Source: Paracoccus sp. (in: a-proteobacteria)
Lineage (GTDB): Bacteria > Pseudomonadota > Alphaproteobacteria > Rhodobacterales > Rhodobacteraceae
Length of the DNA: 64,000 nt
Assembly (NCBI GenBank): GCA_030538425.1
Contig: JAUNTZ010000001.1
Coordinates: 55,454 to 119,453, forward strand
Direction of reading: 5' to 3'
Shown here piece after piece: positions 1 to 47,619 of this stretch. The translations under genes were made by a program, and so were the position numbers. Each line of letters begins with the position of its first letter. Position 1 is the stretch's first letter. The notes beneath the pieces are model-generated. The model was not told the DNA's origin. It saw only the letters and a list, made by a program, of their open reading frames with translations, and ran no database searches.

Positions 1-1531
1 CAACGGCCAGAAACAGCGTATTCGTGCCGCCTTCGGCCATGTCGCTGCGCGCTTTGCGGTAAAGATCGGTCAGGCGGTTGGTCATCTCGCGTTGCGTCAG
101 AGGCACGGCGATCTGGCCCCGCGTCAGGGCGTCACGCGCCAGATCCATTTCGATCCGGCGCGCTTCGTCTGCGGACAGGTCGCGCCCGGACACCGCGTTT
201 TCATCCTTGAGCGCCAACAGGCGAAAGGTTTCGCCATCGGCCAGCCGGTCTTCGGTTCCCGAAATATCGGGACAGATCATAGCCAACCCGCCGCGCGTTT
301 CGCGAAAGTTCAGCAACCGGTTGCGCAGCGACAAATCCAGCAGCCTCCGCTGCCAGCGTTCGATGCGCCCCATGGCGGTTGTGGGGGTTTCATCGACCAG
401 CTCACCGGGCAACAGGCCCAAATCCAGAGGGCGGGGCAGTGCGGCGGGGGCGGCTGCGATGTCGCAGGCGGGGGCCGCGTCCTGAATGCGGTGGCTGGCC
501 AAGGGGCGGATGCGGGCCGCGCGGGCGCGGTTGATATCGACGGCCTGAATAAATTCGGCCTCGCGCGCCTCGGACAGACGGTCGCCGCCCGCCTGCACCG
601 CATGTTCAAAGCCAATGGCGGGGCGCTGCGTCAAAAGAGTGGTTTCAAGAGCGACGAATTCGCGTGCGACAAGGGCTTTGCGAACCTCGACCACATCGGG
701 TTCGACCAGGCGGCCAAAGTCCTTTTTGATCAGCCAGACGCCGACCCATGCGTGACCATGCGAAAACAGAACGGCGGTGTTCAGACCCGCAGCCTCATAG
801 GCTGCCGCCAGCAGAAGCGTGCTGTCGAGGCAGGTCGCCAACCCTTCGGAGGCGATGCGTTCGGGGTCGCGGATCTTCTGCCCGATCCGTTCAAAGGATG
901 CCGGAGGCACGGCATAGGTCAGGCCAAGGCCGGTCGCCGCCGACCAGATCGCGCCCGCCAGCATCCAGACCCGCAGCGGGTCCCCGGATTGATAGCCATC
1001 CAATGATCCCGAATACCCCGCCGCTTCCAACAAGCGCGCCGCATCCTTGAGGATACGTGCAACGAAGGGTTGGTTGGGTGAAACAAAGGCCGCCAGGATA
1101 TTGTCCATCTCAGCCAGCCCGCCCCATTCATCGCGGGCCAGCAATTCGATCCGGTGACTGGAGGTGAGATCCTCGGCGCCCTTGACCGATAGCCGGAACT
1201 GGATCTGCCCGATCTCGGCCTCATCCAGCCCACTCAGAAGCGCAGTGTCGAGCACGGTTTCCAGATCACCCAGTTGCTGGGTGGCACCCGCCGCAATGCG
1301 GTCGATCACCCAGGTCTTTTCCCGAAAGATGGCCGGGTTGGCTGACAATGTCAGTCGTATGTTCTCGGCAGGCTCTGCTCCGACATTCTCGATCGCCAGG
1401 CCTTTGATGACTGCCACCCCGTTCTGCGCCGAGGCAAAGTTGACCTTGGTGGCAAGCGTCGGGTGGAGGACCAGCGTGGCCTTCTCCTCAGCGGCAACCG
1501 AGGGCGCGATAAGCGGGGCATCATCCTGCAT
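1..1531 (-). CDS. DUF4011/DUF3320-type large helicase-nuclease protein, N-terminal ~510 aa (runs off window)
   Basis: Not in the ORF track because it has no stop in the window. My translation from ATG 1531: MQDDAPLIAPSV...PPASFERIGQKIR...ATCLDSTLL...GHAWVGVWL...RIERWQRRLLDLSLRNRLLNF...AEGGTNTLFLAV. WQRRLLDLSLRNRLLNF is the typical start of DUF4011. Confidence 0.8.
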   Translation of the reverse strand, partial: MQDDAPLIAPSVAAEEKATLVLHPTLATKVNFASAQNGVAVIKGLAIENVGAEPAENIRLTLSANPAIFREKTWVIDRIAAGATQQLGDLETVLDTALLSGLDEAEIGQIQFRLSVKGAEDLTSSHRIELLARDEWGGLAEMDNILAAFVSPNQPFVARILKDAARLLEAAGYSGSLDGYQSGDPLRVWMLAGAIWSAATGLGLTYAVPPASFERIGQKIRDPERIASEGLATCLDSTLLLAAAYEAAGLNTAVLFSHGHAWVGVWLIKKDFGRLVEPDVVEVRKALVAREFVALETTLLTQRPAIGFEHAVQAGGDRLSEAREAEFIQAVDINRARAARIRPLASHRIQDAAPACDIAAAPAALPRPLDLGLLPGELVDETPTTAMGRIERWQRRLLDLSLRNRLLNFRETRGGLAMICPDISGTEDRLADGETFRLLALKDENAVSGRDLSADEARRIEMDLARDALTRGQIAVPLTQREMTNRLTDLYRKARSDMAEGGTNTLFLAV

Positions 1532-1539
1532 GGTTTGTT

Positions 1540-2365
1540 CTTTCGTGGCGGTGACAATTCGATGATATTGGCGCCCGGACAGGCGGTCAGGGCGATTTTG
1601 CATAAATGACGGTGACGGGTCAGATAGATGACCTGACCGACCCGGGACATCTCCTCCAGCAGCACGAATGCTGCGGGCAAGCGGTCGTTGTCGAAGGTCT
1701 CCATGATGTCGTCAGCGATGACGGGCAGGGTCGGGCGGCTTTGGGCCGGTTCGTGATAGCCCGCGATGCGCAACGCCAGATAAAGCTGGAACCGCGTGCC
1801 CTTCGACAGATCGGCGGCGAGTTCGGCGCCGCCATGCGCGGGCAGGACCACCAGAACCTCCTGCGCGCCATCGGGCTGCGCGGCAAGGCCCGAATAGGCG
1901 CCCCGGCTGAGCTGGCTGAACGCATCCGAGGCGCGGGCCAGCATGGCGCTGCGATGCCGGTCGCGATAGCGCCTGAGACCGACGTCGAAGGCCAGCAGGC
2001 CAAAGCGCGAGGCGAGAAGGGCATTGGCGCGTTCACGGGCCTCCAGCAGCAGGTTCGCGCGTTCGGCGGCAAGATGGGCCAGCGCATCATGGTTGCCACG
2101 AATGATGAAGCAGCGGGTGCCAGCCGCATTCAGTCGCAGCAATTCCTGTTTCAGAAACCGCGGCGTCGTGGCCGCGCTATGCGAACCATCCGACAGATCG
2201 TCGGTGATCAGCAAAAAAGCGACGGCCTCTTCGATGCACAGATCCACGATCCGGGCAAAGGCGGTCAGCGATGCTGCACTGACCGCCTGAGCCGGATCAC
2301 GCAGGGCAGTCGTGGTCAGCGGCGCATCAAAATGCAAATCAGCATTGTGGATAAAGCGAAAACTC
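1540..2365 (-). pseudogene. Deletion fusion of a YhaO/SbcD-like metallophosphoesterase N-terminus to a YhaN/SbcC-like ATPase C-terminus
   Basis: FRFIHNADLH...RGNHDA (phosphoesterase motifs) joined in frame to LSKGTRFQLYLALR...IADDIMETFD...QVIYLT (ABC signature, Walker B, D-loop); ORF 1351..2397 reads through into the next gene. Confidence 0.75.
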
Positions 2366-2632
2366 AAGATAAGCTGCCCATGTACCGATCGGTCCATCGA
2401 CTATGAGATGGGTTGAGCGGTCCGACAAGTATCTTTTAGTTTGAATTTAAAAGAAGAACTGCGACGAAGACGTTGCCGCGCCTGCCCAATCAAAGGCCAA
2501 CGAAGCACTGTGGCAAGCTGCACCAGCGGGCTTTAGGAAAAAACGGCCATCCATCAGCAGAAACACGTGGCATAGGCATCACAAACAGTCAGTGCGTGCC
2601 GATGGGCCCGCAGGGCAAAACCAGCCACGTAT

Positions 2633-4917: not shown

Positions 4918-5333
4918 ATGACCATGACCGACCTGATCCCCGCGCGCCTGGCCGCGCTCAAGACCACGCGACGTCCGATCTGAAGCAGCAGTGGCGCTAC
5001 CTTGGATCCCGCCTGGCTTATCGCATCCAGGAACTCGCCTATGGCGGGCTGAAGCCTGAGACGGTCCGGCGGCTGGAACGGCTGGGCGAGGAACCGGACG
5101 GCGGCGACAAGAAGAAGCGCAGCATCCGTGCCGACCAAGACCGCCCAATCACGGGCACGCGCCTCCTGCGCGGATGGCAGGGCGTCGAACAGATCGTCAC
5201 CGTCGCTGCCGGCGGCTTCAAGTGGCAAGGGCGGTCCTACAAGTCGCTGTCCGCCATTGCCCGCGCCATCACCGGCACGCGATGAAACGGCTGGGTGTTC
5301 TTCGAGCTCAAGAACCACAGGGTGCGGACATGA
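4918..5333 (+). pseudogene. DUF2924 domain protein (stops and frameshift)
   Basis: SRLAYRIQELAYGGL...PITGTRLLRGWQG...YKSLSAIARAITGTR*NGWVFF; directly upstream of the serine recombinase, as usual for this family. Confidence 0.8.
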
Positions 5334-6575
5334 CGAAGCCGCTCGACAAACCGAAGGTCGTCCGCAAGCTGCGGTGCGCGATCTACACCCGAAAATCCCC
5401 TGAGGAAGGGCTGGAGCAGGAGTTCAACTCGCTCCACGCCCAGCGTGAGGCCTGCGAGTCGTTCATCGCCAGCCAGCGCTCCGAGGGCTGGGTGCTGGTC
5501 CGCGATCAGTATGACGACGGCGGCATTTCCGGCGGCACGCTGGAACGCCCCGGTCTGCGGCGGCTGATCGACGAAATCGAAAATGGGCTGGTCGACGTCG
5601 TCGTGGTCTACAAGATCGACCGCTTGTCACGCTCGCTCGCCGACTTCGCCAAGCTGGTCGAGGTATTCGATTGCAACGGCGTGACGTTCGTTTCGGTCAC
5701 GCAGTCCTTCAACACGACCACGTCGATGGGACGGCTAATGCTGAACATCCTACTCTCGTTCGCGCAGTTCGAGCGCGAGGTGACTGCCGAGCGCATCCGC
5801 GACAAGGGCGCCGCCAGTCGGAGGAAGGGCATGTGGATGAGCGGGGTGCCGCCGGACGGCTAGCGCGTCGAGAGCGGGAAGCTGCTGGTTGACGAAACCA
5901 CCGCGGCACATGTGCGCTGGATATTCACCCGCTTCATCTAGATTGGCTCCTGCACGTTGCGGGCCTGCGAGGTCGGCGGGCGCGGCCTCTGCACGCCAGG
6001 CGGCAACCGGATCGACAAGAAGTACCTCTACCGGATGCTGAACAACCGCGCCTACGTCGGTAAGGTGGTCCACAAGGGTGGGAGCTATCCCTGCGAGCAC
6101 GACGCCATCATCGACCGCGAGACATGGGACCGTGTCCACGCCATCCTGCAGGAGAGCCCGCGCAAGCGCGCGCCAACACGCCCTAAAGGGCGGGAGGCTG
6201 TACCGGTACTATGTCAGCAAGACGGTGCAAAAGCATGGCGCCGGATCTTGCACGGTCGGCCGCGTGCCTGCGGGCGAGATTGAAGCCGCCGTCATCGACC
6301 AGCTGCGCGCCGTGTTCCGCCAGCCGGAGATCGCTGCGGGCAGGCGGAAGGCGGCGCGCTACGAGGCGGAGGACATTACCGAAGTCGACGCTTGCGGGGC
6401 CCTGCAGTAGCTCGACCGACTGTGGTACGAACTCTTCCCTGCCGAGCAACACCACATCATGGCGCTGTTGGTCGAGCGGGTGGACATCGGCAGGGGTGAA
6501 CGTACGGCTGCGCATCGACGGACAGAGCGGTCTCGCACGCGAACTACTAGCCGGAAAAAGGGAGCGGCTGCATGA
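5330..6575 (+). pseudogene. Large serine recombinase (recombinase family), inactivated
   Basis: RCAIYTRKS...YDDGGISGGTLERPGL...VYKIDRLSRSL; in-frame stops at 5861 and 5939, further frameshifts; downstream LYRMLNNRAYVG and YRYYVS segments still recognisable. Confidence 0.9.
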
Positions 6576-7168: not shown

Positions 7169-7390
7169 ATGAAGGACAAGCGAGAGAACTTTGTGAGGCT
7201 GGCGGAGGCCCGGGTGAACCGGGCCCTCAAGGACATCCGACTGATCGGTAACCTGTCGAACAAATCGGCCTACAGCTACACCGAAGAGGACGTGAAGAAG
7301 ATGTTTCGCGCCTTGCAGCGCGAGACTGAGTTTGCTCGGTCGAAGTTTGGCGATGGAGACAGCAGCGGGTCCGGAGTTTTCAAGCTCTAG
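7169..7390 (+). CDS. Small 73-aa helical protein heading the cargo operon
   Basis: MKDKRENFVRLAEARVNRALKDIRLIGNLSNKSAYSYTEEDVKKMF...; amphipathic helices; upstream part of ORF 6989 looks non-coding. Confidence 0.8.
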   Translation: MKDKRENFVRLAEARVNRALKDIRLIGNLSNKSAYSYTEEDVKKMFRALQRETEFARSKFGDGDSSGSGVFKL

Positions 7391-7431
7391 GCGCCGTTTG
7401 CACAGGGCAGCAAAATGGAGATTTAGCGGCG

Positions 7432-9333
7432 ATGGTTGAACCAGTTCTTAGATTCTTGGCCAACGAGGCTGGCGAGAAGGAGGGGCTCGGCGATGCCGGA
7501 ATTGAAACCTTTCGAGACGCGCCCTATGCCAGCTGCGCTAGGGAGGCCGGGCAAAATAGCCGTGACGCCACAACAGGATTGTCTAGGCATCCCGTTAGAA
7601 TGTCGTTCAATGTTTTCGATCTCGACCACGCAAACTTTCCTTCCCATGACATTCTGAAAAGCACGATTGCTGCTTGCAGGGCCGAGGCCAAACAAGACCG
7701 GGAAAAGGAATTTTTTGCGAACGCGTCCAAAGTGATCGGCGCGGATAGGATAACCGTGCTCGAAATCGCCGATCGCAGCACTACCGGCCTCGTTGGCCCA
7801 CCTGACGTGGAAGAAACGCCTTTTCATTCACTCGTCAAGGCCTCGGGCGTGACGGCCAAGGATACTGTCGACTCCGGCGGCTCCTTCGGCATCGGCAAGA
7901 ATGCGTCCTTTGCCGTATCCGACCTCCAGACCGTGTTTTACGCTACGACTTACAAGAACGGAGAGAGCGAAGCTTTTGCCGCTCAAGGCAAGGTGAAGCT
8001 GGTTTCGCATACAGACCCGGACGGCAGGAAGCTGAGGGCGACGGGCTATTGGGGGGATCCCGAGGGGTTCCGGGCTGTGACTGACCGAGCGCTAGTGCCA
8101 GAATGGATGGCGCGTACCGAAATCGGCACTTCGATCTTCTGCATGGGCTTCCGGGCGGCTGGCGACTGGGCTGAGCGCATGACCTATTCGCTCGTCTCGA
8201 ACTTCTTCGGCGCCGTTCACCGCGAACAGATGGTATTTGAGGTAGACGACGGGAGGTTTAACATCAACCGCAACACGCTCGAGGGGCTGTTCGCGAAGCA
8301 AGACATCATCGAGGCCGCAGAACGCACGGGGCATCAGGCCGATCTGACCTTTGCAGGGCAGCTCTATCGTTGCCTCGTTTCGGATAATGCGGAAGAGCAG
8401 GTCCTCACGATCCCAAAGCTTGGTAAGATGCGGGTCCGAGTGCTGATCGAAGAGGGAATGCCCTGCCGCGTTGGCTTCATCCGAAACGGGATGCTGATCA
8501 CGGACAACCTTCGGCACTTCGGGCATCCTCTGGCACAGTTTCGCGGATCGCGCGACTTCGTCGTGGTCGTGGAACCGGATGACACTGAAGCTGGCGTTCT
8601 TTTGAAGAAGCTTGAGAACCCAGCACATGACGGCTTCTCCGCCGAAAGGCTGCCCGACGCCGGCAAGCGAGCAGACGCTTCATCGGCCATGAAGCGTCTC
8701 GGCAAAGAACTTAGGGAGATCATCAGGGCAACCACGGGCGTCAAGCATGAAGGCTCCGTCGTCCTGGACGAACTGGGCCGTTTTTTCGCCGACACCGGCA
8801 AGGCCTACACACCCGACGATCCGAACGCCGAGCATGATCCCGAGCGGTATACCTACGAGTCCAAAAGACGAAAATCGAAGTCTCGAAAGGCTCCGAGCCC
8901 TGCCGGAGGCGAGCAGGGCGGTCGGAGCCAGACCGGGACGGGTTCTGGCGGTAAAGGTGGAGGCAGCGGCTCCGGAACCGGTGAGGGCACACGCGACCGT
9001 GGCACAACTGGAGATCGGGAGCCGGTTGTTCTCCGCGAGGTACGTAACCTTATCCGTTCAGACAGTTCCGGAGCAGCCACATCCCGTGAGCTTCACTTCA
9101 CGCCGGAAGCCTCAGGACTGATTGAATTGATGGTCCAAGCCACGGGGGTGAACGCGCCTGAGGGCCTAAACGTGACGGCTGCAGACGCGGGCACCCCGGG
9201 TTCTGGGGTGCTCATTGTTGACGTCAAGGACGGCGAACGCTGCAAGGTGACAGTTTCGTTCGATGAACCATACGATGGCCCGATCGAATTGATCGCCGTG
9301 AGCCGCGCAGAAGCCGAGGAGACGCCGGCATGA
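7432..9333 (+). CDS. 633-aa protein with N-terminal GHKL (HATPase/MORC-like) ATPase motifs
   Basis: REAGQNSRDA (N box), LEIADRSTTGL (G1), SGGSFGIGK (G2), GTSIF (late motif); Gly-rich linker near the C-terminus; GGAG upstream. Confidence 0.8.
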   Translation: MVEPVLRFLANEAGEKEGLGDAGIETFRDAPYASCAREAGQNSRDATTGLSRHPVRMSFNVFDLDHANFPSHDILKSTIAACRAEAKQDREKEFFANASKVIGADRITVLEIADRSTTGLVGPPDVEETPFHSLVKASGVTAKDTVDSGGSFGIGKNASFAVSDLQTVFYATTYKNGESEAFAAQGKVKLVSHTDPDGRKLRATGYWGDPEGFRAVTDRALVPEWMARTEIGTSIFCMGFRAAGDWAERMTYSLVSNFFGAVHREQMVFEVDDGRFNINRNTLEGLFAKQDIIEAAERTGHQADLTFAGQLYRCLVSDNAEEQVLTIPKLGKMRVRVLIEEGMPCRVGFIRNGMLITDNLRHFGHPLAQFRGSRDFVVVVEPDDTEAGVLLKKLENPAHDGFSAERLPDAGKRADASSAMKRLGKELREIIRATTGVKHEGSVVLDELGRFFADTGKAYTPDDPNAEHDPERYTYESKRRKSKSRKAPSPAGGEQGGRSQTGTGSGGKGGGSGSGTGEGTRDRGTTGDREPVVLREVRNLIRSDSSGAATSRELHFTPEASGLIELMVQATGVNAPEGLNVTAADAGTPGSGVLIVDVKDGERCKVTVSFDEPYDGPIELIAVSRAEAEETPA

Positions 9334-10166
9334 GGTTTTCAGAAGAAACGCGCTATCCGCATCCCGTCTTGGCGCAGGACACAGGGGATTTCACCGCCGG
9401 TGAATTTGACGTGACCTTCACCCTGAGCGAAGACAAGGCAACGGGGGCGCTTTCCATTCAGCACGATGTAAACCTAACGGAAGACGGGATTCGGAAACTC
9501 GTCGAAACCGGTAAGGCGTCGGTAGGCTGCTTTGTCCGCTGCGCGGATACGTATCATACCGAACTGCGCACTCTGGCGTGGCCCACCGGTCGTACCGACT
9601 TCGCTGCCGGAGTTTTGCTGAACAGGGTAACCTTGCGGCCAATCGTCTGGTTGAACGACACGCTGGCTGGCTGGGATCCGGGGACCATTCACCCGGAATT
9701 TTCACCACCGGTTGATCTCGGCCGCGGGGATATCATCGCGATCGGGGAGGAACACATTATCTCGGTCGGACAGGCCAAGCTTGCTCCCATCGAAAGCATC
9801 TTCGAACTGGACCGATCGCCGGAGATCCCTGAAGGTACGTTGCAGGTTGATCTCGAGCGAGACCGGATCACAATCCTCGCCGGGGAAAGGACGCACGAGA
9901 CCATCATGCTCTTGCGCGACCAGAAGACCGGGAAACCTGTGGTCATGAACTCTGTCTACCTTCCGGCAGTGATGGAAGTCCTTGATGCGCTGCAAAGTGG
10001 AGCAGACCAATACGAGTCATATCGCTGGCATGTTCCGTTCACGGCCCGCTGTGACGCCCGAGGCGTTGATCCAAAGACGGATACATCCATCCTCGAGAGC
10101 GCTCAGAAACTTCTCGATGGCCCAGTAAGCGGACTGGAGCAGCTGATAGCGGAGGCAGACAGATGA
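9330..10166 (+). CDS. Hypothetical protein (278 aa), translationally coupled
   Basis: ATGA overlap with the upstream gene; N-terminal RYPHPVL...GDF; intact ORF. Confidence 0.85.
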   Translation: MRFSEETRYPHPVLAQDTGDFTAGEFDVTFTLSEDKATGALSIQHDVNLTEDGIRKLVETGKASVGCFVRCADTYHTELRTLAWPTGRTDFAAGVLLNRVTLRPIVWLNDTLAGWDPGTIHPEFSPPVDLGRGDIIAIGEEHIISVGQAKLAPIESIFELDRSPEIPEGTLQVDLERDRITILAGERTHETIMLLRDQKTGKPVVMNSVYLPAVMEVLDALQSGADQYESYRWHVPFTARCDARGVDPKTDTSILESAQKLLDGPVSGLEQLIAEADR

Positions 10167-10915
10167 CGGTATCGCCGCTCAAGTATCTTTCTGAAAGAAA
10201 GCTTTCCGAGCTTAAGGAGAGCATCGTCGCCAACCGTGACCGGTATCAGGCCGGCGATTTCCTAGATCTTGAGCATGACAACGGCTGGGCAGTGGAGACC
10301 AGCACGGTTCAGGTTGATCATGACTTGCTGGCGACTCTCGATGGTACAGCGAGGACCGCAGCAGCAGACATCGACAACTCCCTAATCGTGTTTCAGGCCC
10401 TTCACGGTATGACGCCTGCGCTCGCGCGGGAGGAGCGTGTCTGGGCCAGACTGACGCACATCGAGTGCCTTGGCTACGCGCGGGACAGGTGGCTGTCGAG
10501 GAAAAGCGGTGAGCAGCTCGACTTCCAAGTCAGGATCCATGCGTTCGCTCAAGGGCTTACCGCAATCCGCGACGACAATGCTCTATCCCGCCTCTGGTGG
10601 AACATGCACATCGCGAGCATCGCAGATCCGGATGATCCCGAAGGCGCGTTGCGACTCATCCTGAAGACCGCAGACATCCGTAGCAACTTTGTCGAACGCA
10701 CGAATACTGCCGCTCGAAAACCCCTTGCAAGAGCCGTTGTCCGCGCTATGCGAAAAGACACTTGGGTTACAGCCAGCGAGCGATCGTTCAGAGAGTTCAT
10801 GATTGCTTTGAACCGAGATGGTGGCGGGATCCTGTTCGAGGCGTTGTCTGACGACGAGGCTGATGCTCTGATTGACGTCTGTGCGACCCGAGCGAAGGCA
10901 CACTTGGCACGGTAG
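10163..10915 (+). CDS. DUF6339-like protein (250 aa)
   Basis: ATGA overlap; DIDNSLIVF...LAREERVWARLTH...RDRW...NALSRLWW motifs recalled for DUF6339. Confidence 0.7.
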   Translation: MTVSPLKYLSERKLSELKESIVANRDRYQAGDFLDLEHDNGWAVETSTVQVDHDLLATLDGTARTAAADIDNSLIVFQALHGMTPALAREERVWARLTHIECLGYARDRWLSRKSGEQLDFQVRIHAFAQGLTAIRDDNALSRLWWNMHIASIADPDDPEGALRLILKTADIRSNFVERTNTAARKPLARAVVRAMRKDTWVTASERSFREFMIALNRDGGGILFEALSDDEADALIDVCATRAKAHLAR

Positions 10916-10965
10916 GCAGCTTGACGCGACCAACCTCCGAGACCTCTGCTCCACGCTCGAGGGAA

Positions 10966-12543
10966 CTATGAGGCTTTCGAGACCGTGGGGCTACTTTGGA
11001 CCGGCCTTTCGCGTGCCAGAACCTTATGGAGTAAGGCGGCGATGTGCCTCGCAAGAAAGGGCGGCACGGCGTTTCCAACCTGGACATACTGCTGTGTGCG
11101 GTTGCCGAGGAACAGATAATCGTCGGGAAAGGTCTGCAGACGAGCGGCTTCGCGCACCGTGAGGCTGCGGCACTGGATCGGATCAGGATGAATGAAGTAG
11201 TGGCCGTCCTTCGAGATGTGGCTCGTGACCGTGGTCGATGCCTCGTCCGCCAGCTGAACTCGGAAGCGGTCGTTGAAGACTCCAGTGTGCCAGTTGCGGT
11301 GATCTGGGCTGAGCACCAAAGGAAAGTCCGCGGCCTTCGGGCTGTAGCCACGGACCGTCCCAAACACGGCAGCAAACAGGTAGCGACCCAGATCCGACGC
11401 CATGTGCCCGCGCGTCTCGTGCTGGGCGATCGCGCGAAGTTCCGGTCGCTCGATCCATTGCAGCAACTTATCGTTCGAAATGCCATAGTCGTCCGGCAAC
11501 CGTTTCGCCACCCGAACGGTAGGCGTATTGTCCTTCAGTCGCTCTGAAACGGACAGGAACGCTTCACGGAGCGCCCGGTTGTCCTTCCCTTTGGAGATGC
11601 CGGCCAGCAGCTTCGCGGCGTCGAGGACTTCTCCTCGCCAAGCAGCCGCATCGTCGAGTCCGCGGCTGATGCCGCTTCGCAAGGCGGGCATGGTTCCGAT
11701 GACATCGCCTACCGTCCGCACCATGCCGGAGATGGCGATCTCGGCATCAGCTGCCTTGCCCGCGAGGTCGGACCGGATGCCGACAATGATCACCCGGTGT
11801 CGCCGCTGCGGAGCTCCGAATGCCTCGGAGCGCACGACGAAGTCCGATGGCTGCACCGCATCCCGCAGGCTGGCCTTGCCATCCTCTACCCGGATGGCAC
11901 GAAGTTCGTAGTGATGGGCGTGACCCGTGCCGAGCGAGGACAGATCCTCCATCAGCATCTCGAAGACTAGCCGGCTCTCGACCGTGGAGGAGAGCATGCC
12001 CTTGACGTTTTCCATAACGAAGGCGGCCGGGCGAAGCTTGTCGAGGACCCGTATGTACTCGCGAAAAAGGTAGTGCCGCGCATCCTCCTCCGGGACGTAA
12101 TCGACCTTGCCTCTGGAGCGGACGCGTCCCACTAGGGAATAGGCCTGACAGGGCGGGCCGCCTATCAGGATCGTGTCATCGTATTTTGCTTTCAGCGTCG
12201 CGATGGCGCCATCTATTGCGGTCGCCGCAGCACCGGTGCCGAGCTCAAGCGCGCGGGCTTCCTCGATGGCGTGCTGCCATGCTTCGGCATCGATGGCTGA
12301 CCAGTCCGGTTCGGACACCAGCCCGGCATGAAAATCGATGAAATCTTTCGGCAAGCTGCCATGACGTGCACGGTACTCGCGCAGGAAGGCGCGCAGCGTC
12401 AGGGTCCGATGGGCCGATGCCTCCTTCTCGACCGAGATGCCGATCCGGAACGGCGTGTGACCATCCTCGACAAGGGATGCAAATCCCTCGCCAAGTCCGC
12501 CGGGGCCGGCGAACAGATCGACAATGCCGAAAGTGGAAGGCAA
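10966..12543 (-). CDS. dcm: DNA (cytosine-5) methyltransferase
   Basis: Motif I DLFAGPGG, IV GGPPCQ, VI MENVKG, VIII QRRHRV, IX RSLTVREAARLQTFPD, X QVGNAVPP; TTG start. Confidence 0.95.
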   Translation of the reverse strand: MPSTFGIVDLFAGPGGLGEGFASLVEDGHTPFRIGISVEKEASAHRTLTLRAFLREYRARHGSLPKDFIDFHAGLVSEPDWSAIDAEAWQHAIEEARALELGTGAAATAIDGAIATLKAKYDDTILIGGPPCQAYSLVGRVRSRGKVDYVPEEDARHYLFREYIRVLDKLRPAAFVMENVKGMLSSTVESRLVFEMLMEDLSSLGTGHAHHYELRAIRVEDGKASLRDAVQPSDFVVRSEAFGAPQRRHRVIIVGIRSDLAGKAADAEIAISGMVRTVGDVIGTMPALRSGISRGLDDAAAWRGEVLDAAKLLAGISKGKDNRALREAFLSVSERLKDNTPTVRVAKRLPDDYGISNDKLLQWIERPELRAIAQHETRGHMASDLGRYLFAAVFGTVRGYSPKAADFPLVLSPDHRNWHTGVFNDRFRVQLADEASTTVTSHISKDGHYFIHPDPIQCRSLTVREAARLQTFPDDYLFLGNRTQQYVQVGNAVPPFLARHIAALLHKVLARERPVQSSPTVSKAS

Positions 12544-12610
12544 ATCAGGTTCCTATCGAATTTCATTCAGCCGGTGTATACTAGGTTCAGGGACGAAGGC
12601 TAGGACGGAT

Positions 12611-13060
12611 GTGACCGATATCGTAGACCAGCAGCAGACTCGTTCCCGAATGATGTCGGGGATCAGGGGAAAGAACACCAGGCCCGAGCTGGCTCTCAGA
12701 CGGGCATTGCACGCGCGTGGTTTTCGTTTCCGGCTTCATTCCGGCAAGGTTCACGGTCGACCGGACCTTGTCCTTCCGAAACACCGCGCCGCGGTCTTCG
12801 TGCACGGCTGCTTCTGGCACCGACACTAGGGTTGCCGCTACACGACCGTACCGGCAACCCGGGCGGAGTTCTGGCGTGCGAAGTTCGATGCGAACACCGC
12901 TCGAGATAGCGCCGTTCGCACAAAACCCTTCAACACGGATGGTGAGCGGCGACGGTGTGGGAGTGCGCATTGCGGAGGCCGGGTCTGGTTAGCGCCATAA
13001 CTGATCGTCACGTTACCTAGCTGCTCGCGAGGACGGTGGGTATGGAAATTGGTGGAGGCG
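12611..13060 (+). pseudogene. vsr: Very short patch repair endonuclease, inactivated
   Basis: MTDIVD...RSRMMSGIRGKNTRPE...GRPDLV...FVHGCFWHRH then TAG (12827-12829); GC...FW..KF..N..RD continues, then a frameshift before VWECAL. Confidence 0.9.
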
Positions 13061-13092
13061 ATATACCGCAAAGCGGGATCGTCGCCACAGAT

Positions 13093-14250: not shown

Positions 14251-14340
14251 TGGCGGACGGTGAGGGATTCGAACCCTCGAGACGGTTCCCCGCCTACACA
14301 CTTTCCAGGCGTGCGCCTTCGACCACTCGGCCAACCGTCC
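14251..14340 (-). tRNA. tRNA-Ser(GGA)
   Basis: GGACGGTTGGCCGAGTGGTCGAAGGCGCACGCCTGGAAAGTGTG...GGTTCGAATCCCTCACCGTCCGCCA; 90 nt with long variable arm and encoded CCA. Confidence 0.97.
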
Positions 14341-23169: not shown

Positions 23170-23244
23170 TGGGGTGTAGCCAAGTGGTAAGGCAGCGGTT
23201 TTTGGTACCGTGTACCGTAGGTTCGAATCCTACCACCCCAGCCA
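23170..23244 (+). tRNA. tRNA-Gln(TTG)
   Basis: TGGGGTGTAGCCAAGTGGTAAGGCAGCGGTTTTTGGTACCGTGTACCGTAGGTTCGAATCCTACCACCCCAGCCA. Confidence 0.97.
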
Positions 23245-23731
23245 AGACATCTAGAAAATGTAATGGAATCAACGGCGAAAGCCGCGTTTTTGCGCGCTTT
23301 GTGTCACGCCCTCGCGAGAGGGTAACATAAATTGTGAGACACCGAACCCGAACGAGGCGAGGCGGCGGCGGTCCGCTGGCCCCTTCCTGGATCGACGGGT
23401 TTGTTCGTCTACATCCCTCGGCGGATCCCGCAGCCGCTCGCAATAATCCGTGGTCGCGGGTTTTTCTGTCGCGTCGAACGCCTCTCTTTGCTGAAGCGAT
23501 GGGGGTCACGTTCAACCCGGAACGACGGGCCGTGCATCTGTTGACACCGGAGCAAGCTGCGTTCTTTGAGCCGTTCGGCTATGACACGGCCTGGCTGAGA
23601 TCTCGCAAGGCTCTGGATCACAAACTTTCATAGGCCGCGCGTCTTTGGTTGCGCGGCGCAGAGGGCTTTCAGCTTGCTAGGGCGCGGGGGAAAGTGCTCT
23701 AACAGTGGAAAAGCGATACGGGGGCAGGCGC

Positions 23732-25525
23732 ATGACGGAACTGGTGTTCAAAGGCAAGGAATTCGTTTGGAATCATCACCTTGCGGTGCCGTTCCGGCCC
23801 TTGATCATGCAGGCGGACAAGGGGATTGGTGCGCCGCGGCTGGACGGGAACCTGATCGTGCAGGGCGATAACCTGCACGCGCTGAAGGCGCTTTTGCCGA
23901 TCTATGCGGGCCGCGTGGACTGCATCTTCATCGACCCGCCCTATAATACCGGCAATGAGGGCTGGGTCTATAATGACAACGTGAACGCGCCGATGATCCG
24001 GGAATGGCTGGACGCCGAAGTGGGATTAGACGACGGTTTGCGACACGATAAATGGTGCGCGATGATGTGGCCGCGCCTCAGACTCTTGCGCGAACTGTTG
24101 CGGGACGGCGGGTTGATTTTTGTCGCAATCGATCACAACGAAGCACACCACCTGCGCAACCTAATGTCGGAAGTCTTTGAAGACGGGAATTTTATCGCAA
24201 ATATCGTTTGGCAAAAGCGGACCTCTCCCGAGGCTCGGAAAAGACTCGGACAAGCGCACGATACAATTTTGGTATTCAAGAAAGGATCGGAGAAAGAGAC
24301 GCTCAGCAAACTCGATTCCGAAGAGAATGAGGAAGAAGTCGCCAATAGGGACGATGACCCACGGGGGGCGTGGGCCTCGACCGATATGACGGCACAAAAT
24401 CCCGATCCAACGAAACGAAAAGATCAACAATATAAGATTACGTTGCCAAGCGGAGACATAATCTCGCCCCCGCCGGGACGTTGTTGGTCCATGCTGGAGC
24501 CTGAGTTCGAAAGACTTAGGAATGATAACCGCATTTGGTTCGGCGTGAATGGTGATGCGAGACCGAGGATTAAGAATTTTCTTTCTGAGAGTGCGGGAAC
24601 GTCAGCTTGGACGTGGTGGCCAAACGGCGAGGTGGGCCACAATCAAGAGGCGACAAAGGAAGTTCTCAGAATTCTAGGTGGCGATGCTTCTTTCGACTAC
24701 CCAAAGCCTGTTCGACTAATCCGCCGAATTCTGGACCTTGCCACCGACAAGGACTCCATCATCCTCGACTCCTTCGCCGGTTCCGGCACCACGGCCCATG
24801 CCGTCCTCGAAGCCAACAAGCGCGACGGTGGCAACCGGCGCTTTATCCTTGTGGAGATGGAGGATTATGCCGATCGGCTGACCGCCGAACGGGTGCGGCG
24901 TGTGATCAACGGCTATGACTTCACCGGCACGCAAAAAACCGAACTGCTGCGCGAGCGGCTGAACTGGCGCTCGATTGAAAAAGCGGGCGATCTGGTGGAC
25001 AAGGTGCAGGGGATCGAAAACCTGCATGGCCACGAATACGACAAGATCACCAAACAGGTGAAGGGCGGCGAGCTGATCGTCACCGGCGAAAAACGCGTCG
25101 CAGACCGGGCCGAGGGGTTGGGCGGCGAATTCACCTATTGCACGCTGGGCGAGCCGGTTGAGCTTGACCATATCCTGACCGGCGAAGACCTGCCCGCCTT
25201 TGACGCGCTGGCGGGGGTGCTGTTTCATATGGCGACCTCGCAGCCGCTCGACCCCGCCAGGCTGGACGCGGACCGCGCCTATGTGGGCGAGGCGGGCGGC
25301 ACCCATGTCTGGCTGATCTACCGCCCCGATCTCGACTGGCTGAAATCGCCCGACGCGGCCCTGACCCTCAGCTTCGCGCGCAAGCTGGCCCGTGCGCAGC
25401 CCGACGCGCGGCACCTTGTCTTTGCCCCCGCGCGATATGTCAGCCAGAAGATGCTGGACGACCAGCGCTTGCCCGTCGAATTCGTGCCGCTGCCCTTTGC
25501 GCTCTACCGGGTGGAACGGGTCTGA
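23732..25525 (+). CDS. mod: Type III R-M methyltransferase (Mod, beta class)
   Basis: QGDNLHALK, IDPPY, YPKP, ILDSFAGSGTT; TGATG coupling to res. Confidence 0.92.
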   Translation: MTELVFKGKEFVWNHHLAVPFRPLIMQADKGIGAPRLDGNLIVQGDNLHALKALLPIYAGRVDCIFIDPPYNTGNEGWVYNDNVNAPMIREWLDAEVGLDDGLRHDKWCAMMWPRLRLLRELLRDGGLIFVAIDHNEAHHLRNLMSEVFEDGNFIANIVWQKRTSPEARKRLGQAHDTILVFKKGSEKETLSKLDSEENEEEVANRDDDPRGAWASTDMTAQNPDPTKRKDQQYKITLPSGDIISPPPGRCWSMLEPEFERLRNDNRIWFGVNGDARPRIKNFLSESAGTSAWTWWPNGEVGHNQEATKEVLRILGGDASFDYPKPVRLIRRILDLATDKDSIILDSFAGSGTTAHAVLEANKRDGGNRRFILVEMEDYADRLTAERVRRVINGYDFTGTQKTELLRERLNWRSIEKAGDLVDKVQGIENLHGHEYDKITKQVKGGELIVTGEKRVADRAEGLGGEFTYCTLGEPVELDHILTGEDLPAFDALAGVLFHMATSQPLDPARLDADRAYVGEAGGTHVWLIYRPDLDWLKSPDAALTLSFARKLARAQPDARHLVFAPARYVSQKMLDDQRLPVEFVPLPFALYRVERV

Positions 25526-38858: not shown

Positions 38859-39092
38859 ATGAAAGCTGTCGGGCGGCAGGAAGGTGAAACGCCTCGCATC
38901 CGGACCGGCCTAGAGCGCGTTTTCATCTGGGTCAGCAAACTTGCCGTCAACGAAAAACCTCTCATGATGCTCGGGACTATCGCCGATGCAACCTGCAATG
39001 CGCCGACCCTTTTTCAAGGTGCCGACAAGGGCGTTTGTTAAAGCCGCGGCATCAGGCTGGCGTGACAGTCCGTCGATCAACCACGCACCCGC

Positions 39093-39121
39093 CTGTCACC
39101 CAACCTTTACGCCCCTGTCAC
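39093..39121 (+). promoter_or_regulatory. Pho box
   Basis: CTGTCAC (39093), CCTTTAC (39104), CTGTCAC (39115) at 11-bp period. Confidence 0.65.
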
Positions 39122-39171
39122 ATAACAGACATGCGGCCTCATTAAGGACAGCCGCAAGCGAAGGGAAAACT

Positions 39172-40323
39172 ATGACGGCACAATCGCTCACCCTGACTGG
39201 CATCACCAAAAGCTTCGGCGAAAGCGCGGTTCTCAAGGGGATAGATCTGGAGATTCGCTCGGGCGAGTTCCTGTCGCTCGTGGGCATGTCCGGCTGCGGG
39301 AAATCGACGCTTTTGCGGATCATCGCGGGGCTTGAGAGTGCCGATGAGGGGCAGGTGCGGATCGGCGCGCAGGATGTGACGCAGGTCGATCCCAGCGACC
39401 GCAATCTGGCGATGGTGTTTCAAAGCTATGCGCTTTACCCACATATGACGGTGCGCCAGAATATCGCGACGCCTCTGCGGATGCGCCAGCTTTCCATGGC
39501 GGCGCGCCTGCCGTTTGTGGGGCGTCTGATGCCCGGTCAGGGCAGGGCGCGCGCGGCGATTGACGCGCAGGTCGAGGCGGCGGCCGAGACGCTCCAGATC
39601 ACACCGCTGCTCGATCGCAAACCGGCGCAGCTTTCGGGCGGGCAGCGTCAGCGGGTCGCGCTGGCCCGCGCCTTGGTGCGCCAGCCTGCGGCGTTCCTGA
39701 TGGATGAGCCGCTGTCCAATCTTGACGCGAAACTGCGCAACCATATGCGCGATGAGCTTGCCGCGCTGCATCGCAGGCTGGGCGCGACGTTCATCTATGT
39801 CACCCATGATCAGGTCGAGGCGATGACCATGTCCGACCGTATCGCGCTGATGGATTCGGGGCGGATCATCCAACTTGGCACGCCGGACGATCTTTATCAT
39901 CGCCCCGCCAATCTGACCGTCGCGCGGTTCATCGGCTCACCCTCGATCAATCTTTTCCCGGTTGAGATCGGCGCTGAGGGCCATGTCTCGCTGCTGGGCC
40001 GGGGGCTTGCGCTGCGGACCAAGGCGGGGCAGGGACCGGCGAGTCTGGGGCTGCGACCGGAAAATCTCAGCTTCGCCAAAGCGCCGGGTGAGGGACTGCC
40101 CGCGCGCGTTCTCCACAGTGAGATGCACGGCGCGGACCGCTATGTCACGCTGCGCCTTGAAGGTGCCGATCACCACGCTGTCATGCGCCTGCCCGGAGAC
40201 CTGCGCCAGGCGCCCGAGGATGGCGCGCGGGTCGAGATCGCCTTTGATCCCCAGAACGCGCATCTCTTCGGCGCGGGTGGCGACCGGCTTGAGACCCTGC
40301 GCGCCGAGGTTCATGCCGCATGA
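39172..40323 (+). CDS. ABC transporter ATP-binding protein (UgpC/MalK-like)
   Basis: [35 protein letters not shown]. Confidence 0.95.
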   Translation: MTAQSLTLTGITKSFGESAVLKGIDLEIRSGEFLSLVGMSGCGKSTLLRIIAGLESADEGQVRIGAQDVTQVDPSDRNLAMVFQSYALYPHMTVRQNIATPLRMRQLSMAARLPFVGRLMPGQGRARAAIDAQVEAAAETLQITPLLDRKPAQLSGGQRQRVALARALVRQPAAFLMDEPLSNLDAKLRNHMRDELAALHRRLGATFIYVTHDQVEAMTMSDRIALMDSGRIIQLGTPDDLYHRPANLTVARFIGSPSINLFPVEIGAEGHVSLLGRGLALRTKAGQGPASLGLRPENLSFAKAPGEGLPARVLHSEMHGADRYVTLRLEGADHHAVMRLPGDLRQAPEDGARVEIAFDPQNAHLFGAGGDRLETLRAEVHAA

Positions 40324-41228
40324 GCATGACTGCCGCCCCGACCTGCGCGGCCATCGCCCGACCCCGCGCGCATCGCGGTCGCAGCGCGCTGATCTTTGTC
40401 GCGCCCGCGATTTTTCTGCTGCTGGTGATCTATATCGTCCCGCTGGTCGCGCTATTGGGCTTCAGCGTGACCGATTACCGGCTGGGCGCGATCCAGACCG
40501 AGTTCACCGGGCTCGACAATTTCCGCCGCGCCATGTCCGATCCGGTCTTCCTTCGCGCGCTGAGAAATACCCTTGTTTACGCGGGTATCGTGATCCCCTT
40601 CGGCATTGGCCTCGCGTTGCTTATCGCCGTTCTGGTGCATGAGCGCACCCGCAGCCGCGGCTTTTGGGAGATTGCCTATTTCCTGCCCGTGACCGCCACG
40701 CTGGTTGCGATGGCGACGGTGTGGCAATTCGTGCTGCACCCCTCGCTTGGGCCGGTCAATGCCGCGATTCGCTGGCTGGGGATGGAGCCGGTCTCGTTCC
40801 TTGGCAACCCCGCGCTGCTGATCCCGACGCTGGCGATGATCGGCGTCTGGCAGGTGCTGGGCTTCAATATGGTGCTCTATCTCGCCGGACTGACCGGGAT
40901 TTCGCGCGATCTTTACGAGGCTGCGCGGATGGATGGCGCGAAAAGCGGCATCGACCGCTTTCTGACCGTGACATGGCCGATGTTGGGACCGACCACGATG
41001 TTCGTTCTGGTCACCACCTCGATCAGCGCGTTCAAGGTATTCGAGACAGTGGCGGTGCTGACCAAGGGAAGATCCGGTTCAGAAACATTGCTTTATGCGA
41101 TCTATCTCGAAGGTTTCGAATATTCCGAGACCGGCTATGCCGCCGCGCTGACGCTGCTGTTTCTGGCGATCATTCTGGCGCTGTCGATCTGGCAGACATT
41201 TTTTATGGACAAGAAGGTGCATTACTGA
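40320..41228 (+). CDS. ABC transporter permease (UgpA-like)
   Basis: Multiple TM segments; LYEAARMDGA EAA loop. Confidence 0.93.
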   Translation: MSMTAAPTCAAIARPRAHRGRSALIFVAPAIFLLLVIYIVPLVALLGFSVTDYRLGAIQTEFTGLDNFRRAMSDPVFLRALRNTLVYAGIVIPFGIGLALLIAVLVHERTRSRGFWEIAYFLPVTATLVAMATVWQFVLHPSLGPVNAAIRWLGMEPVSFLGNPALLIPTLAMIGVWQVLGFNMVLYLAGLTGISRDLYEAARMDGAKSGIDRFLTVTWPMLGPTTMFVLVTTSISAFKVFETVAVLTKGRSGSETLLYAIYLEGFEYSETGYAAALTLLFLAIILALSIWQTFFMDKKVHY

Positions 41229-42040
41229 TGGGCCGCATTGTCTCATGGCTGATCCTGATTGCGGGCGCGGTGTTCGTGCTGCTGCCGTTTTACTGGATGC
41301 TGCTAACCTCGATCCGCCCCCCGGCCGAGATCTTCAACATCTCGCTCTGGCCGATCCCGGAAAATTTCGCCGCGCGGCAGAATTACAGCCGCGTGATGCA
41401 GCAAGTGCCGATGGCGCAGTTCATGCTGAACGGGGTGATCGTCTGCCTTGGCATCCTTGTGGTGCAGATCCTGACCGCCGTCCCCGCCGCCTATGCGCTG
41501 GCCAAGCTGCGTTTTCGCGGGCAGGGGGTGATGCTGGCGCTGGTGATCGGCGCGCTTTGCGTGCCGATGCAGGCGCTAGCGCTGCCGCTGTTCGTGGGGC
41601 TCGCCAAGGCGAAGCTTCTGAACACCTATTTCGCGCTGATGCTGCCGTTTTTCCTGTCCGTCTTTGCGATTTTCCTGCTGCGCCAGTCCTTCCGTTCCTA
41701 CCCCGATGAGATCATCGAGGCGGCGCGGATGGACGGGTTTTCCGAGATGGAGATCTGCTGGGGCATCGTGCTGCGCGGCTCGCTGCCCGCGCTTGCGGCT
41801 TTCTCGGTCTTCTCGATCGTGGCGCATTGGAACGATCTTTACTGGCCGATGATCGTGGTCAGCGACATCCGCCTCGCGCCGCCGCCCTTGGGGATGCTGT
41901 TCTTCGCCGATGCGGAATCGGGCAGCGATTACGGCGCTTTGATGGCGGGTGCGGCAATCATCACCGCGCCGATGGTGCTGTGTTTCCTGATCGCGCGGCG
42001 CCGTTTCATCGACGGCATCACCATGACCGGCGTGAAATGA
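41228..42040 (+). CDS. ABC transporter permease (UgpE-like)
   Basis: IIEAARMDG, HWNDLYWP; TGATG coupling. Confidence 0.93.
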   Translation: MGRIVSWLILIAGAVFVLLPFYWMLLTSIRPPAEIFNISLWPIPENFAARQNYSRVMQQVPMAQFMLNGVIVCLGILVVQILTAVPAAYALAKLRFRGQGVMLALVIGALCVPMQALALPLFVGLAKAKLLNTYFALMLPFFLSVFAIFLLRQSFRSYPDEIIEAARMDGFSEMEICWGIVLRGSLPALAAFSVFSIVAHWNDLYWPMIVVSDIRLAPPPLGMLFFADAESGSDYGALMAGAAIITAPMVLCFLIARRRFIDGITMTGVK

Positions 42041-42074
42041 GTTTCCTTCCCCTCAACGCTCCAAGGAGAATGTG

Positions 42075-43352: not shown

Positions 43353-43411
43353 ACGCAGAGGGCGGGGCGTGCTATGCGCCCCGCCACGACCTCCCGTGCA
43401 AGGCGGCTTCG

Positions 43412-44212: not shown

Positions 44213-44217
44213 GCACC

Positions 44218-46030: not shown

Positions 46031-46075
46031 GCGCGGCTCCGATGGGGGCGGGCCCCGGGGGACCCGCCTGTGGTG

Positions 46076-47563: not shown

Positions 47564-47619
47564 AATCCGCCCATAGAAGCCGGGACGTCACCTCACGTCA
47601 TAATGAAAGAAGGCCGATC

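What the first reader, a model, noticed from the sequence alone, without database searches (positions are those of the whole stretch)
7169..13060. Candidate undescribed restriction/anti-phage system: small protein + GHKL ATPase + unknown + DUF6339-like, facing a C5 methyltransferase and Vsr
Seen: four co-oriented intact ORFs (73, 633, 278, 250 aa), the last three coupled by ATGA overlaps, converging on an intact 525-aa cytosine MTase with a divergent vsr, all inside a tRNA-Ser island. I see no helicase, PD-(D/E)XK, HNH or PLD motif in the four genes. Known: GHKL/MORC-like ATPases occur with Dcm and Vsr in R-M-like operons, usually alongside a Z1/SF2 helicase or a recognisable endonuclease, which are absent here. 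Inference: the MTase marks self DNA and the ATPase complex acts on unmethylated DNA through a nuclease or effector fold not yet recognised, perhaps the DUF6339-like or 278-aa protein. I cannot match it to a named system from memory.
Basis: partly seen in the sequence, partly recalled or inferred. Interest (0 to 1): 0.85.

Follow-up and report, generated by a model that had tools for sequence, protein, structure and literature searches.

The report
Swappable ATPase defence module beside methylase
Four intact genes beside a DNA-methylating enzyme match an already catalogued but untested anti-phage candidate, and they sit where close relatives carry other known defence machines, so they likely form an ATP-driven clamp that acts on unmarked invading DNA, although none of them looks like a DNA-cutting enzyme.

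Summary
The four ORFs, both ATGA overlaps and the intact C5 methyltransferase are real. The vsr is a pseudogene (3 stops and a frameshift). "Undescribed" fails: the 633, 278 and 250 aa proteins match PADLOC candidate PDC-M33A/B/C (E 3e-96, 2e-34, 3e-27). The ATPase carries the ExxxH motif of paraMORC2 (Iyer 2008), and a distant DUF6339 form was predicted as a defence system by Miller 2022. This scan has noted the cassette before on other DNA (56 findings, at least 46 genomes). I found no experimental test of it.

Added here: (1) Of 18 loci with a 72-94% identical methyltransferase, the adjacent slot holds this cassette (3), Mza or its remnants (7), DISARM DrmAB (2), SspGH-like (1) or a Z1 hybrid (1); 4 were uninformative. 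(2) The cassette pairs with at least three unrelated methyltransferase classes, and some intact copies have none nearby. (3) A structure prediction supports B bridging the ATPase tail and DUF6339 (0.85; best control 0.63). No nuclease fold was found in B or C; A was not modelled.

Best reading (0.5): an interchangeable, methylation-gated defence effector. New member of a known candidate kind, with the mechanism still open.

The parts
7169..7390 (+). S: 73-aa conserved small protein, not among PADLOC's three PDC-M33 models; likely a regulator (inferred from its place at the head of the operon)
   Evidence: Present in 21 of 43 full-context loci. Stays first when a methyltransferase gene lies between it and A (L033, L102, L105, L114, L131-L133). 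No family or PDB hit.
7432..9333 (+). A: PDC-M33A. GHKL-type ATPase by motifs (E38-Q-N42-x-x-D45; D114-x-x-T-x-G119; G150-S-F-G-I-G-K156; G232-T), ExxxH at 395-399, G/S/K-rich linker about 455-530, C-terminal domain about 530-633
   Evidence: PADLOC E 3.2e-96; conservation in 117 homologues; weak HATPase_c_3 hit only in one distant member (E 5.8e-4); profile comparison with MORC/MzaB not significant.
9330..10166 (+). B: PDC-M33B. Predicted Ig-like beta-sandwich (about 11-150) plus small alpha/beta and helical C-terminal part; predicted adaptor between A's tail and C
   Evidence: PADLOC E 2e-34; AlphaFold2 pLDDT 92.8; only generic Ig-like matches, best Z 7.5, rmsd 2.8, 96 aligned; complex prediction.
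10163..10915 (+). C: PDC-M33C, DUF6339. Mostly helical, conserved W94, H99, R109, W110, R143, W145, D171, R179, R210; likely the DNA- or target-reading subunit (inferred)
   Evidence: PF19866 E 2.4e-46; PADLOC E 2.7e-27; pLDDT 95.5; best Z 5.6, rmsd 3.5, 87 aligned; allele mosaic among close relatives.
10966..12543 (-). Intact 525-aa C5 cytosine methyltransferase, of the family that usually faces Mza (MORC-Z1-DUF4420-AIPR) genes
   Evidence: the only C5 methyltransferase found in the genome; partner survey.
12611..13065 (+). vsr pseudogene (stop at codon 73, frameshift near 12920, two further stops)
   Evidence: intact in close relatives L002, L003, L005, L008, L061.
14251..14340 (-). tRNA-Ser(GGA), likely integration site of the island
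   Evidence: no att duplication found.
5174..6410 (+). Broken large serine recombinase, likely the island's integrase
   Evidence: Resolvase, Recombinase and Zn-ribbon domains in three separate frames; a relative carries all three in one 601-aa frame (L001).

Best explanation
S-A-B-C is the catalogued candidate PDC-M33 plus a small leader gene, and it likely works as a swappable effector half of a restriction-modification-like defence, in which the neighbouring methyltransferase would mark host DNA and a predicted A-B-C complex would close as an ATP-driven clamp on unmarked invading DNA and stop it. Shown: the genes, their fixed order, their selection, their link to methyltransferases, and that Mza, DISARM DrmAB and SspGH-like genes occupy the same slot beside near-identical methyltransferases. 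Predicted: B's Ig-like domain binds both A's C-terminal domain and C. Inferred: A dimerises and hydrolyses ATP like other GHKL clamps; C reads DNA; S regulates the operon; the mark gates activity. Least supported step: how the invader is stopped, since no nuclease fold was found in B or C and A was not modelled. Trapping of DNA, or cutting by an unrecognised site (ExxxH in A, or the H/R/D residues of C), are the candidates.
For: PDC-M33A/B/C hits. A is followed by both B and C in 88 of 92 loci with room. C5 methyltransferase within 4 kb in 34 of 43 loci, any methyltransferase in 36 of 43, against one C5 methyltransferase in the 2.69-Mb host genome. Compact [S]-dcm-A-B-C-vsr operons occur in deep branches (L033, L105, L114, L132 with S; L051, L108 without). 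In 15 of 34 loci with a C5 methyltransferase no restriction-enzyme-type neighbour was recognised. Slot test on 18 loci from 17 of 400 same-family genomes: S-A-B-C or the part of it that the contig holds 3, Mza or remnants 7, DrmA+DrmB+NERD helicase 2, SspG/SspH-like 1, Z1-DUF4420 plus distant A/C 1, uninformative 4. At least 5 changes between this cassette and Mza on the methyltransferase tree (quick tree). DISARM DrmAB acts on unmethylated sites and shows no autoimmunity without its methylases (10.1101/2021.12.28.474362, abstract). Complex prediction: 0.85, best of 3 controls 0.63, partner-replaced controls 0.00; runs agree in at least 80% of contacts, partner pLDDT at least 84; the mark was reached by 116 of 157 solved complexes and 2 of 215 mismatched pairs, counts only rough for this three-chain job. 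The vsr decayed while S, A, B, C and the methyltransferase stayed intact.
Against: No experiment found. The partner methyltransferases belong to at least three unrelated C5 classes with different target-recognition regions: one sits beside EcoRII-C or MvaI/BcnI nucleases, the nearest plasmid relatives of another (about 41% identity) sit beside Bsp6I- or PLD-type nucleases, and N6-adenine methyltransferases are the neighbours in L036, L039 and L032. The class changes 8, 9 and 8 times on the A, B and C trees of 50 loci, so no subunit tracks it. L061 keeps a 90% identical methyltransferase but a C only 74% identical. Five of 43 loci lack a C5 methyltransferase in 17-21 kb, and one has it in three pieces beside normal-length A, B, C. 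22 of 43 loci have their own nuclease-type gene nearby. Shared position may only reflect a defence hotspot. The GHKL assignment did not reach significance in profile tests.
Confidence: 0.5

Rival explanations
1. A-B-C is only the sensor or loader clamp, the counterpart of MORC plus AIPR in Mza, and needs a nuclease from outside: Z1-DUF4420 in the distant subfamily, a neighbouring Type II enzyme elsewhere. The window's copy would then borrow a host nuclease or be an orphan.
For: The distant subfamily lies directly behind Z1 (with DUF4420 seen in L048, L050, L181), where AIPR otherwise lies (L048-L050, L181), matching Type I of PMC9523054 (section 11 and Supplementary Table 11). 19 of 34 methyltransferase-bearing loci have a nuclease-type neighbour. 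Iyer 2008 proposes that paraMORCs loop DNA for partner nucleases.
Against: The window-type arrangement without a recognised nuclease recurs in many genomes (L002-L005, L008, L013, L056, L061, L175, L178) with dN/dS at most 0.2 in the pairs tested. The neighbouring nucleases are unrelated to one another and have methyltransferases of their own.
Confidence: 0.2
2. The cassette defends independently of the neighbouring mark: it senses a phage protein (for example a restriction inhibitor) or modified phage DNA through C and stops the infection or the cell. It gathers beside methyltransferases because it guards them or shares their hotspot.
For: Partner methyltransferase class swaps freely. Copies with no methyltransferase nearby exist. 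C alleles differ among otherwise 94-95% identical cassettes, with synonymous distance 1.26 against 0.13-0.17 for S, A, B. PDC candidates were defined as cassettes embedded in BREX, DISARM or Type I RM. S-A-B-C has lower GC (0.57-0.59) than dcm and vsr (0.61-0.62).
Against: The methyltransferase sits inside the operon between S and A in several deep branches. No toxic-effector family was found in any subunit. 36 of 43 with a methyltransferase is high, but I had no matched control from other defence genes.
Confidence: 0.2
3. A-B-C serves the mark and not the attack: a MutL-like helper of Vsr repair of deaminated 5-methylcytosine, or a helper that loads the marking enzyme.
For: vsr within 4 kb in 28 of 43 loci. 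MutL works with Vsr (PMC2292703). Earlier scan notes report a PAPS-reductase-like enzyme in the methyltransferase's place or fused to DUF6339 (not tested here).
Against: Here vsr has four lesions while A-B-C is intact. 15 of 43 loci have no vsr nearby. The same methyltransferase-vsr unit occurs without A-B-C in 10 of 14 informative slot-test loci.
Confidence: 0.08

Closest known systems
PADLOC phage defence candidate PDC-M33 (models PDLC04582-04587; PDC set of Payne et al., bioRxiv 10.1101/2024.01.29.577857; outline with abstract and sections 10 and 17 read)
   Same: A, B and C each hit the matching model, adjacent and in order.
   Different: The models cover neither S nor a methyltransferase. 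PDC systems are computational candidates; PDC-M33 is not named in any text searched and the preprint's supplementary tables were not seen.
paraMORC2 GHKL family (Iyer, Abhiman, Aravind 2008, PMC2292703; parts 1-3 of 4 read, supplement unreadable)
   Same: GHKL motifs, conserved ExxxH (117 of 117), no MORC-specific motif (0 of 117, against 11 of 12 MORC/MzaB rows), neighbourhood of Dcm, Vsr and restriction enzymes.
   Different: Described mainly from cyanobacteria and Gram-positives and often with SF2 helicases, absent here. Membership could not be checked against their sequences.
Predicted defence system 'Type I' of Miller, Stern, Burstein 2022 (PMC9523054; section 11 and Supplementary Table 11 read)
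   Same: C5 methyltransferase, a DUF6339 protein (231 aa), an unknown 310-aa protein and a 704-aa protein with a non-significant MORC2 hit; associated with repair endonucleases. This fits my distant loci L048-L050 and L181 by gene content (sequences not compared).
   Different: Their core includes the Z1 protein and the DUF4420 PD-(D/E)XK protein; the window's cassette has neither, and has S.
Mza (mzaABCDE; called 'validated' in PMC9523054, passage read; the original paper was not held)
   Same: GHKL ATPase-centred module beside the same methyltransferase-vsr unit, in the same slot.
   Different: MzaB is a classical MORC with no significant profile similarity to A; Mza has Z1, PD-(D/E)XK and AIPR proteins, none of which is here.
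DISARM (DrmAB with DrmMII; bioRxiv 10.1101/2021.12.28.474362, abstract read)
   Same: The window's methyltransferase scores best on a DrmMII model (E 2.5e-80), and DrmA+DrmB fill this slot in 2 relatives, one with a 91% identical enzyme.
   Different: No DrmA or DrmB homologue among the four genes; the motor is GHKL-type, not a helicase.

Membership tests
PADLOC PDC-M33 | Protein matching PDC-M33A | tested here: met
   E 3.2e-96, residues 7-518
PADLOC PDC-M33 | Proteins matching PDC-M33B and PDC-M33C | tested here: met
   E 2e-34 and 2.7e-27, nearly full length
PADLOC PDC-M33 | The three genes adjacent and co-oriented | tested here: met
   ATGA overlaps
PADLOC PDC-M33 | Anti-phage activity | not testable with these tools
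   Untested candidate set; no paper text names it
paraMORC2 (Iyer 2008) | N-terminal GHKL domain with four ATP-binding motifs | tested here: inconclusive
   All four motifs in order and invariant or nearly so in 117 homologues; profile searches not significant except a weak HATPase_c_3 hit in one member; A not modelled
paraMORC2 (Iyer 2008) | Conserved ExxxH after the GHKL domain | tested here: met
   E395 and H399 invariant, 117 of 117
paraMORC2 (Iyer 2008) | S5-fold domain that carries the motif | not tested
paraMORC2 (Iyer 2008) | Lacks the MORC-specific GhXhhpXXRhl motif | tested here: met
   0 of 117 A rows against 11 of 12 MORC/MzaB rows, by my regular-expression version of the motif
paraMORC2 (Iyer 2008) | Groups with the published paraMORC2 sequences | not testable with these tools
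   Supplement could not be read
Miller 2022 Type I system | C5 methyltransferase and DUF6339 protein | tested here: met
Miller 2022 Type I system | Z1-domain and DUF4420 core genes | tested here: not met
   No such ORF beside the cassette; the flanks are a broken recombinase and the methyltransferase
Mza | MzaB, C, D, E homologues | tested here: not met
   No Mza model hits S, A, B or C, while the models do hit relatives' slot genes
DISARM | DrmA and DrmB | tested here: not met
   only the methyltransferase hits DrmMII
Type II restriction-modification | Cognate restriction endonuclease beside the methyltransferase | tested here: inconclusive
   No nuclease family hit and no nuclease fold listed for B or C; A, S and B's C-terminal part were not tested by fold

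The most novel reading that the evidence does not exclude
A nuclease-free GHKL clamp (A2B2C2) restricts invading DNA by trapping it, plugs into any host mark (5mC at different sites, m6A, perhaps sulfur), and reads its target through DUF6339, a DNA-reading fold not yet solved whose alleles are exchanged between strains. It would be the closest bacterial parallel to eukaryotic MORC silencing, and one methyltransferase-vsr unit would be a socket for at least four different effector modules.
Probability: 0.2. Interest if true: 0.8.

Novelty: new member of a known kind. Interest (0 to 1): 0.42.

Why it matters
The locus is one more copy of a catalogued candidate, so finding it is not news. The family is large (2,632 representatives at 50% identity), reaches several bacterial phyla and haloarchaea and has no test that I could find. 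This copy is a clean test case: intact S-A-B-C and methyltransferase, dead vsr, no nuclease gene beside it. Relatives with 86-92% identical methyltransferases carry Mza or DrmAB in the same slot, which gives natural positive controls under what is probably the same mark. A result would say whether a prokaryotic MORC-like ATPase can defend without a nuclease, a question open since 2008.

Tried and rejected
Azaca: recalled as a lead; the listing gave nothing linking it and no Azaca model hit. AbiR and AlkD-like glycosylase: recalled leads, no family or fold hit. Sequence searches of the PDB with profiles of A, B, C and S: nothing below E 0.09. Fold searches: no clear match for C in pdb, pdb_via_wide or viral, only generic Ig-like matches for B; residues 1-147 of C and 152-278 of B were barely tested, and absence shows no new fold. 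ESM Atlas: no usable hit for C, unnamed clusters only for B. Profile-profile of A against 12 MORC/MzaB rows and one GyrB: N-box and G2-box align to their counterparts but scores are at chance level; 1 of 20 column-shuffled controls scored higher. Idea that S is fused to the methyltransferase: rejected, all 64 S hits are small ORFs. Idea that C tracks the methyltransferase class: rejected. Idea that all partners mark one sequence: unlikely from their different recognition regions and neighbours; no specificity was measured. att duplication: none found. Promoter and terminator scans at chance level. Main-text searches for 'PDC-M33' (0 papers), 'DUF6339' (0) and 'paraMORC2' (1) missed the DUF6339 mention in a supplement, so other supplements may name it. 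DefenseFinder was not available.


Full report
Observation. The four ORFs are as described: S 7169-7390 (73 aa), A 7432-9333 (633 aa), B 9330-10166 (278 aa), C 10163-10915 (250 aa), with ATGA overlaps at A/B and B/C. A 525-aa C5 methyltransferase lies convergently at 10966-12543. Its divergent vsr is a pseudogene: TAG at codon 73, a frameshift near 12920 and two more stops, where close relatives are intact. Four lesions suggest decay, not a sequencing slip, but reads were not checked. S, A, B, C and the methyltransferase show dN/dS of 0.06-0.20 against 3-4 relatives, some near saturation. The region is island-like: tRNA-Ser points into it, a broken serine recombinase, AlpA and IS pieces flank it, and GC is 0.57-0.59 for S-A-B-C against 0.645 for the genome. 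No att duplication was found. The nearest named relatives are marine and saline alphaproteobacteria.

What it is. A, B and C match PADLOC's PDC-M33A, B and C (E 3.2e-96, 2e-34, 2.7e-27). PDC systems are untested candidates found embedded in BREX, DISARM or Type I RM (Payne et al., sections 10 and 17). C is DUF6339. In 117 homologues A keeps the four GHKL motifs in order and an invariant E395/H399. Iyer 2008 defines paraMORC2 by a conserved ExxxH in the S5 domain; A has it in 117 of 117 and the MORC motif in 0 of 117. The GHKL call rests on motifs: profile tests were not significant except a weak HATPase_c_3 hit in one distant member. Miller 2022 predicted a 'Type I' defence system of Z1, DUF4420, a C5 methyltransferase, a 704-aa protein with a weak MORC2 hit, a 310-aa unknown and DUF6339; my distant loci L048-L050 and L181 have that content. 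After my own PADLOC result I saw that this scan holds 56 findings on the cassette in at least 46 genomes; none is from this genome.

Spread and order. A has 2,632 representatives at E up to 0.001 and occurs in 8 of 401 genomes of the phylum, on 26 plasmid records and in 7 viral contigs. I gathered 121 non-duplicate loci with an A hit of at least 200 aa. They are not a random sample: the metagenome scan kept the best 80 of 463. In 88 of 92 loci with room, both B and C follow A; three of the four misses have an ORF of the right size that my HMM missed. Of the 121, 46 had full-length A and at least 3 kb on both sides, 43 after dereplication at 90%. Among these 43: S 21, C5 methyltransferase within 4 kb 34, any methyltransferase 36, vsr 28, nuclease-type neighbour 22. 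The nuclease labels were set by hand from Pfam scans of neighbours of at least 200 aa within three genes, mostly one per family, and from plasmid annotation, so divergent nucleases may be missed. The host genome has one C5 methyltransferase, this one. I had no control from other defence genes.

The partner is not fixed. Of 72 neighbouring C5 methyltransferases, 27 are EcoRII/Dcm-like, 17 are the window's 525-aa type and 16 are a 340-aa type that sits in the operon as [S]-dcm-A-B-C-vsr; 12 are others. The class changes 8, 9 and 8 times on fast trees of A, B and C for the 50 loci that could be labelled. N6-adenine enzymes are the neighbours in L036, L039 and L032. Five of the 43 loci have normal-length A, B, C and no C5 methyltransferase in 17-21 kb, and L054 has it in three pieces. 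This argues against a lethal, strictly cognate restriction enzyme.

Slot test. The window's methyltransferase has a match at E up to 1e-100 in 31 of 400 same-family genomes. I fetched all 18 loci at 72% identity or more (17 genomes), plus 2 at about 50%. Next to the methyltransferase: S-A-B-C in 2 and B-C up to a contig end in 1; Mza genes or remnants in 7; DrmA+DrmB+NERD helicase in 2; SspG/SspH-like genes in 1; Z1-DUF4420 with distant A and C in 1; contig ends or IS in 4. Enzymes 91-92% identical to the window's face this cassette (L170), Mza (L171) or DrmAB (L172). A quick tree needs at least 5 changes between this cassette and Mza. DrmAB is reported to act on unmethylated sites without autoimmunity (abstract); Mza is called validated in PMC9523054; the role of SspGH in phosphorothioate restriction is recalled, not read. 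Displacement of this kind is the best evidence that S-A-B-C is an effector module, but a shared hotspot would look similar.

Anatomy. B is predicted as an Ig-like sandwich plus a helical part (pLDDT 92.8), C as a helical domain (95.5). Neither matches a nuclease or any solved fold clearly. A three-chain prediction of A 520-633, C and B scored 0.85 against a best control of 0.63 (C replaced, A-B kept) and 0.00 for two partner-replaced controls; runs agree in at least 80% of contacts and the partner's pLDDT is at least 84. The mark was reached by 116 of 157 solved complexes and 2 of 215 mismatched pairs; those counts hold only roughly for this job. B 7-10 packs on A 537-541 and 615-621, and B 72-79, 92-98, 132-135 on C 84-89, 180-186, 221-228. 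These include conserved residues (A R538, G616, P617; B P10, T74; C T84, P85, G221). Conserved C residues not named in the interface (W94, H99, R109, W110, R143, W145, D171, R179, R210) are candidates for the fold's core or for DNA binding. C is mosaic: L061 has S, A, B at 94-95% but C at 74%, synonymous distance 1.26 against 0.13-0.17, with changes concentrated after residue 100; L007 shares that allele. An ATPase domain, long flexible linker and C-terminal hub resemble MutL's layout (recalled); A2B2C2 is inferred.

Mechanism. Most likely (0.5) a methylation-gated effector: the methyltransferase marks self, the A-B-C clamp engages unmarked DNA and blocks it, by trapping or by an unrecognised active site. 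Rivals: a loader that needs an outside nuclease (0.2), a mark-independent sensor or guard (0.2), a helper of Vsr repair or of marking (0.08). The dead vsr and the 10 of 14 informative slot loci without A-B-C count against the last.

Verdict. Real and intact, but a new member of a catalogued candidate kind, seen many times in this scan. The slot equivalence with Mza, DrmAB and SspGH-like modules, the predicted A-B-C complex and the C mosaicism make it a well-posed experiment. Unseen supplements (Payne 2024 tables, Iyer 2008 file 1, Miller 2022 Dataset 6) may already say more. Papers seen: Payne 2024, outline with abstract and sections 10, 17; Iyer 2008, parts 1-3 of 4; Miller 2022, section 11, one passage and part 3 of supplement 1; Tiamat preprint 10.64898/2026.09.30.754977 and PMC8011034, passages; DISARM preprint, abstract; others as search listings only. 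Interest 0.42.

Noticed in passing
L170-L187 (G-handle loci): One methyltransferase-vsr unit (72-94% identical) faces at least four different effector modules in relatives: PDC-M33, Mza, DrmA+DrmB+NERD helicase without the other DISARM genes in view, and an SspG/SspH-like FtsK pair. The last two pairings with this C5 methyltransferase may deserve their own look.
   Followed up: partly
L061:12732-13484 and L007:1633-2385: A divergent DUF6339 allele (73-74% to the window's) inside cassettes otherwise 94-95% identical; changes hit well-conserved positions after residue 100.
   Followed up: partly
L190:1166-5956 (G000:C71:51165-55955; its start lies in window 1-502): 1,596-aa helicase gene matching PADLOC PDC-S37 (E 0) and Hhe (E 9e-163), about 7 kb left of the cassette.
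   Followed up: no
window 23170-25525: tRNA-Gln followed by a Type III methyltransferase (E 4e-209): probably a second island.
   Followed up: no
window 1351-2397 (-): ORF with an N-terminal metallophosphoesterase piece that looks like a fusion of two broken genes.
   Followed up: no
G000:C71 about 39000-51000 (left of the window): Low-GC stretch (0.56-0.59) with ABC-transporter and radical-SAM-like ORFs by eye; may belong to the same island.
   Followed up: no
L057:3271-3835 and L058:2970-3534: Two tandem copies of the small S gene in front of A.
   Followed up: no
L125:6208-9111, L126, L135:5369-6064: A gene of up to 967 aa with RNA polymerase alpha-CTD and sigma region 4 hits directly after C.
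   Followed up: no
L036 (Lactococcus plasmid NZ_PP589888.1) and L039 (Ligilactobacillus plasmid NZ_CP007647.1): Full A-B-C cassettes on plasmids of lactic acid bacteria, beside N6-adenine methyltransferases; convenient hosts with well-known phages for a first test.
   Followed up: partly
G776 (genome of L006): Two DUF6339 genes in one genome.
   Followed up: no
L011:9896-11469: B and C are both frameshifted while A and the methyltransferase are whole.
   Followed up: no
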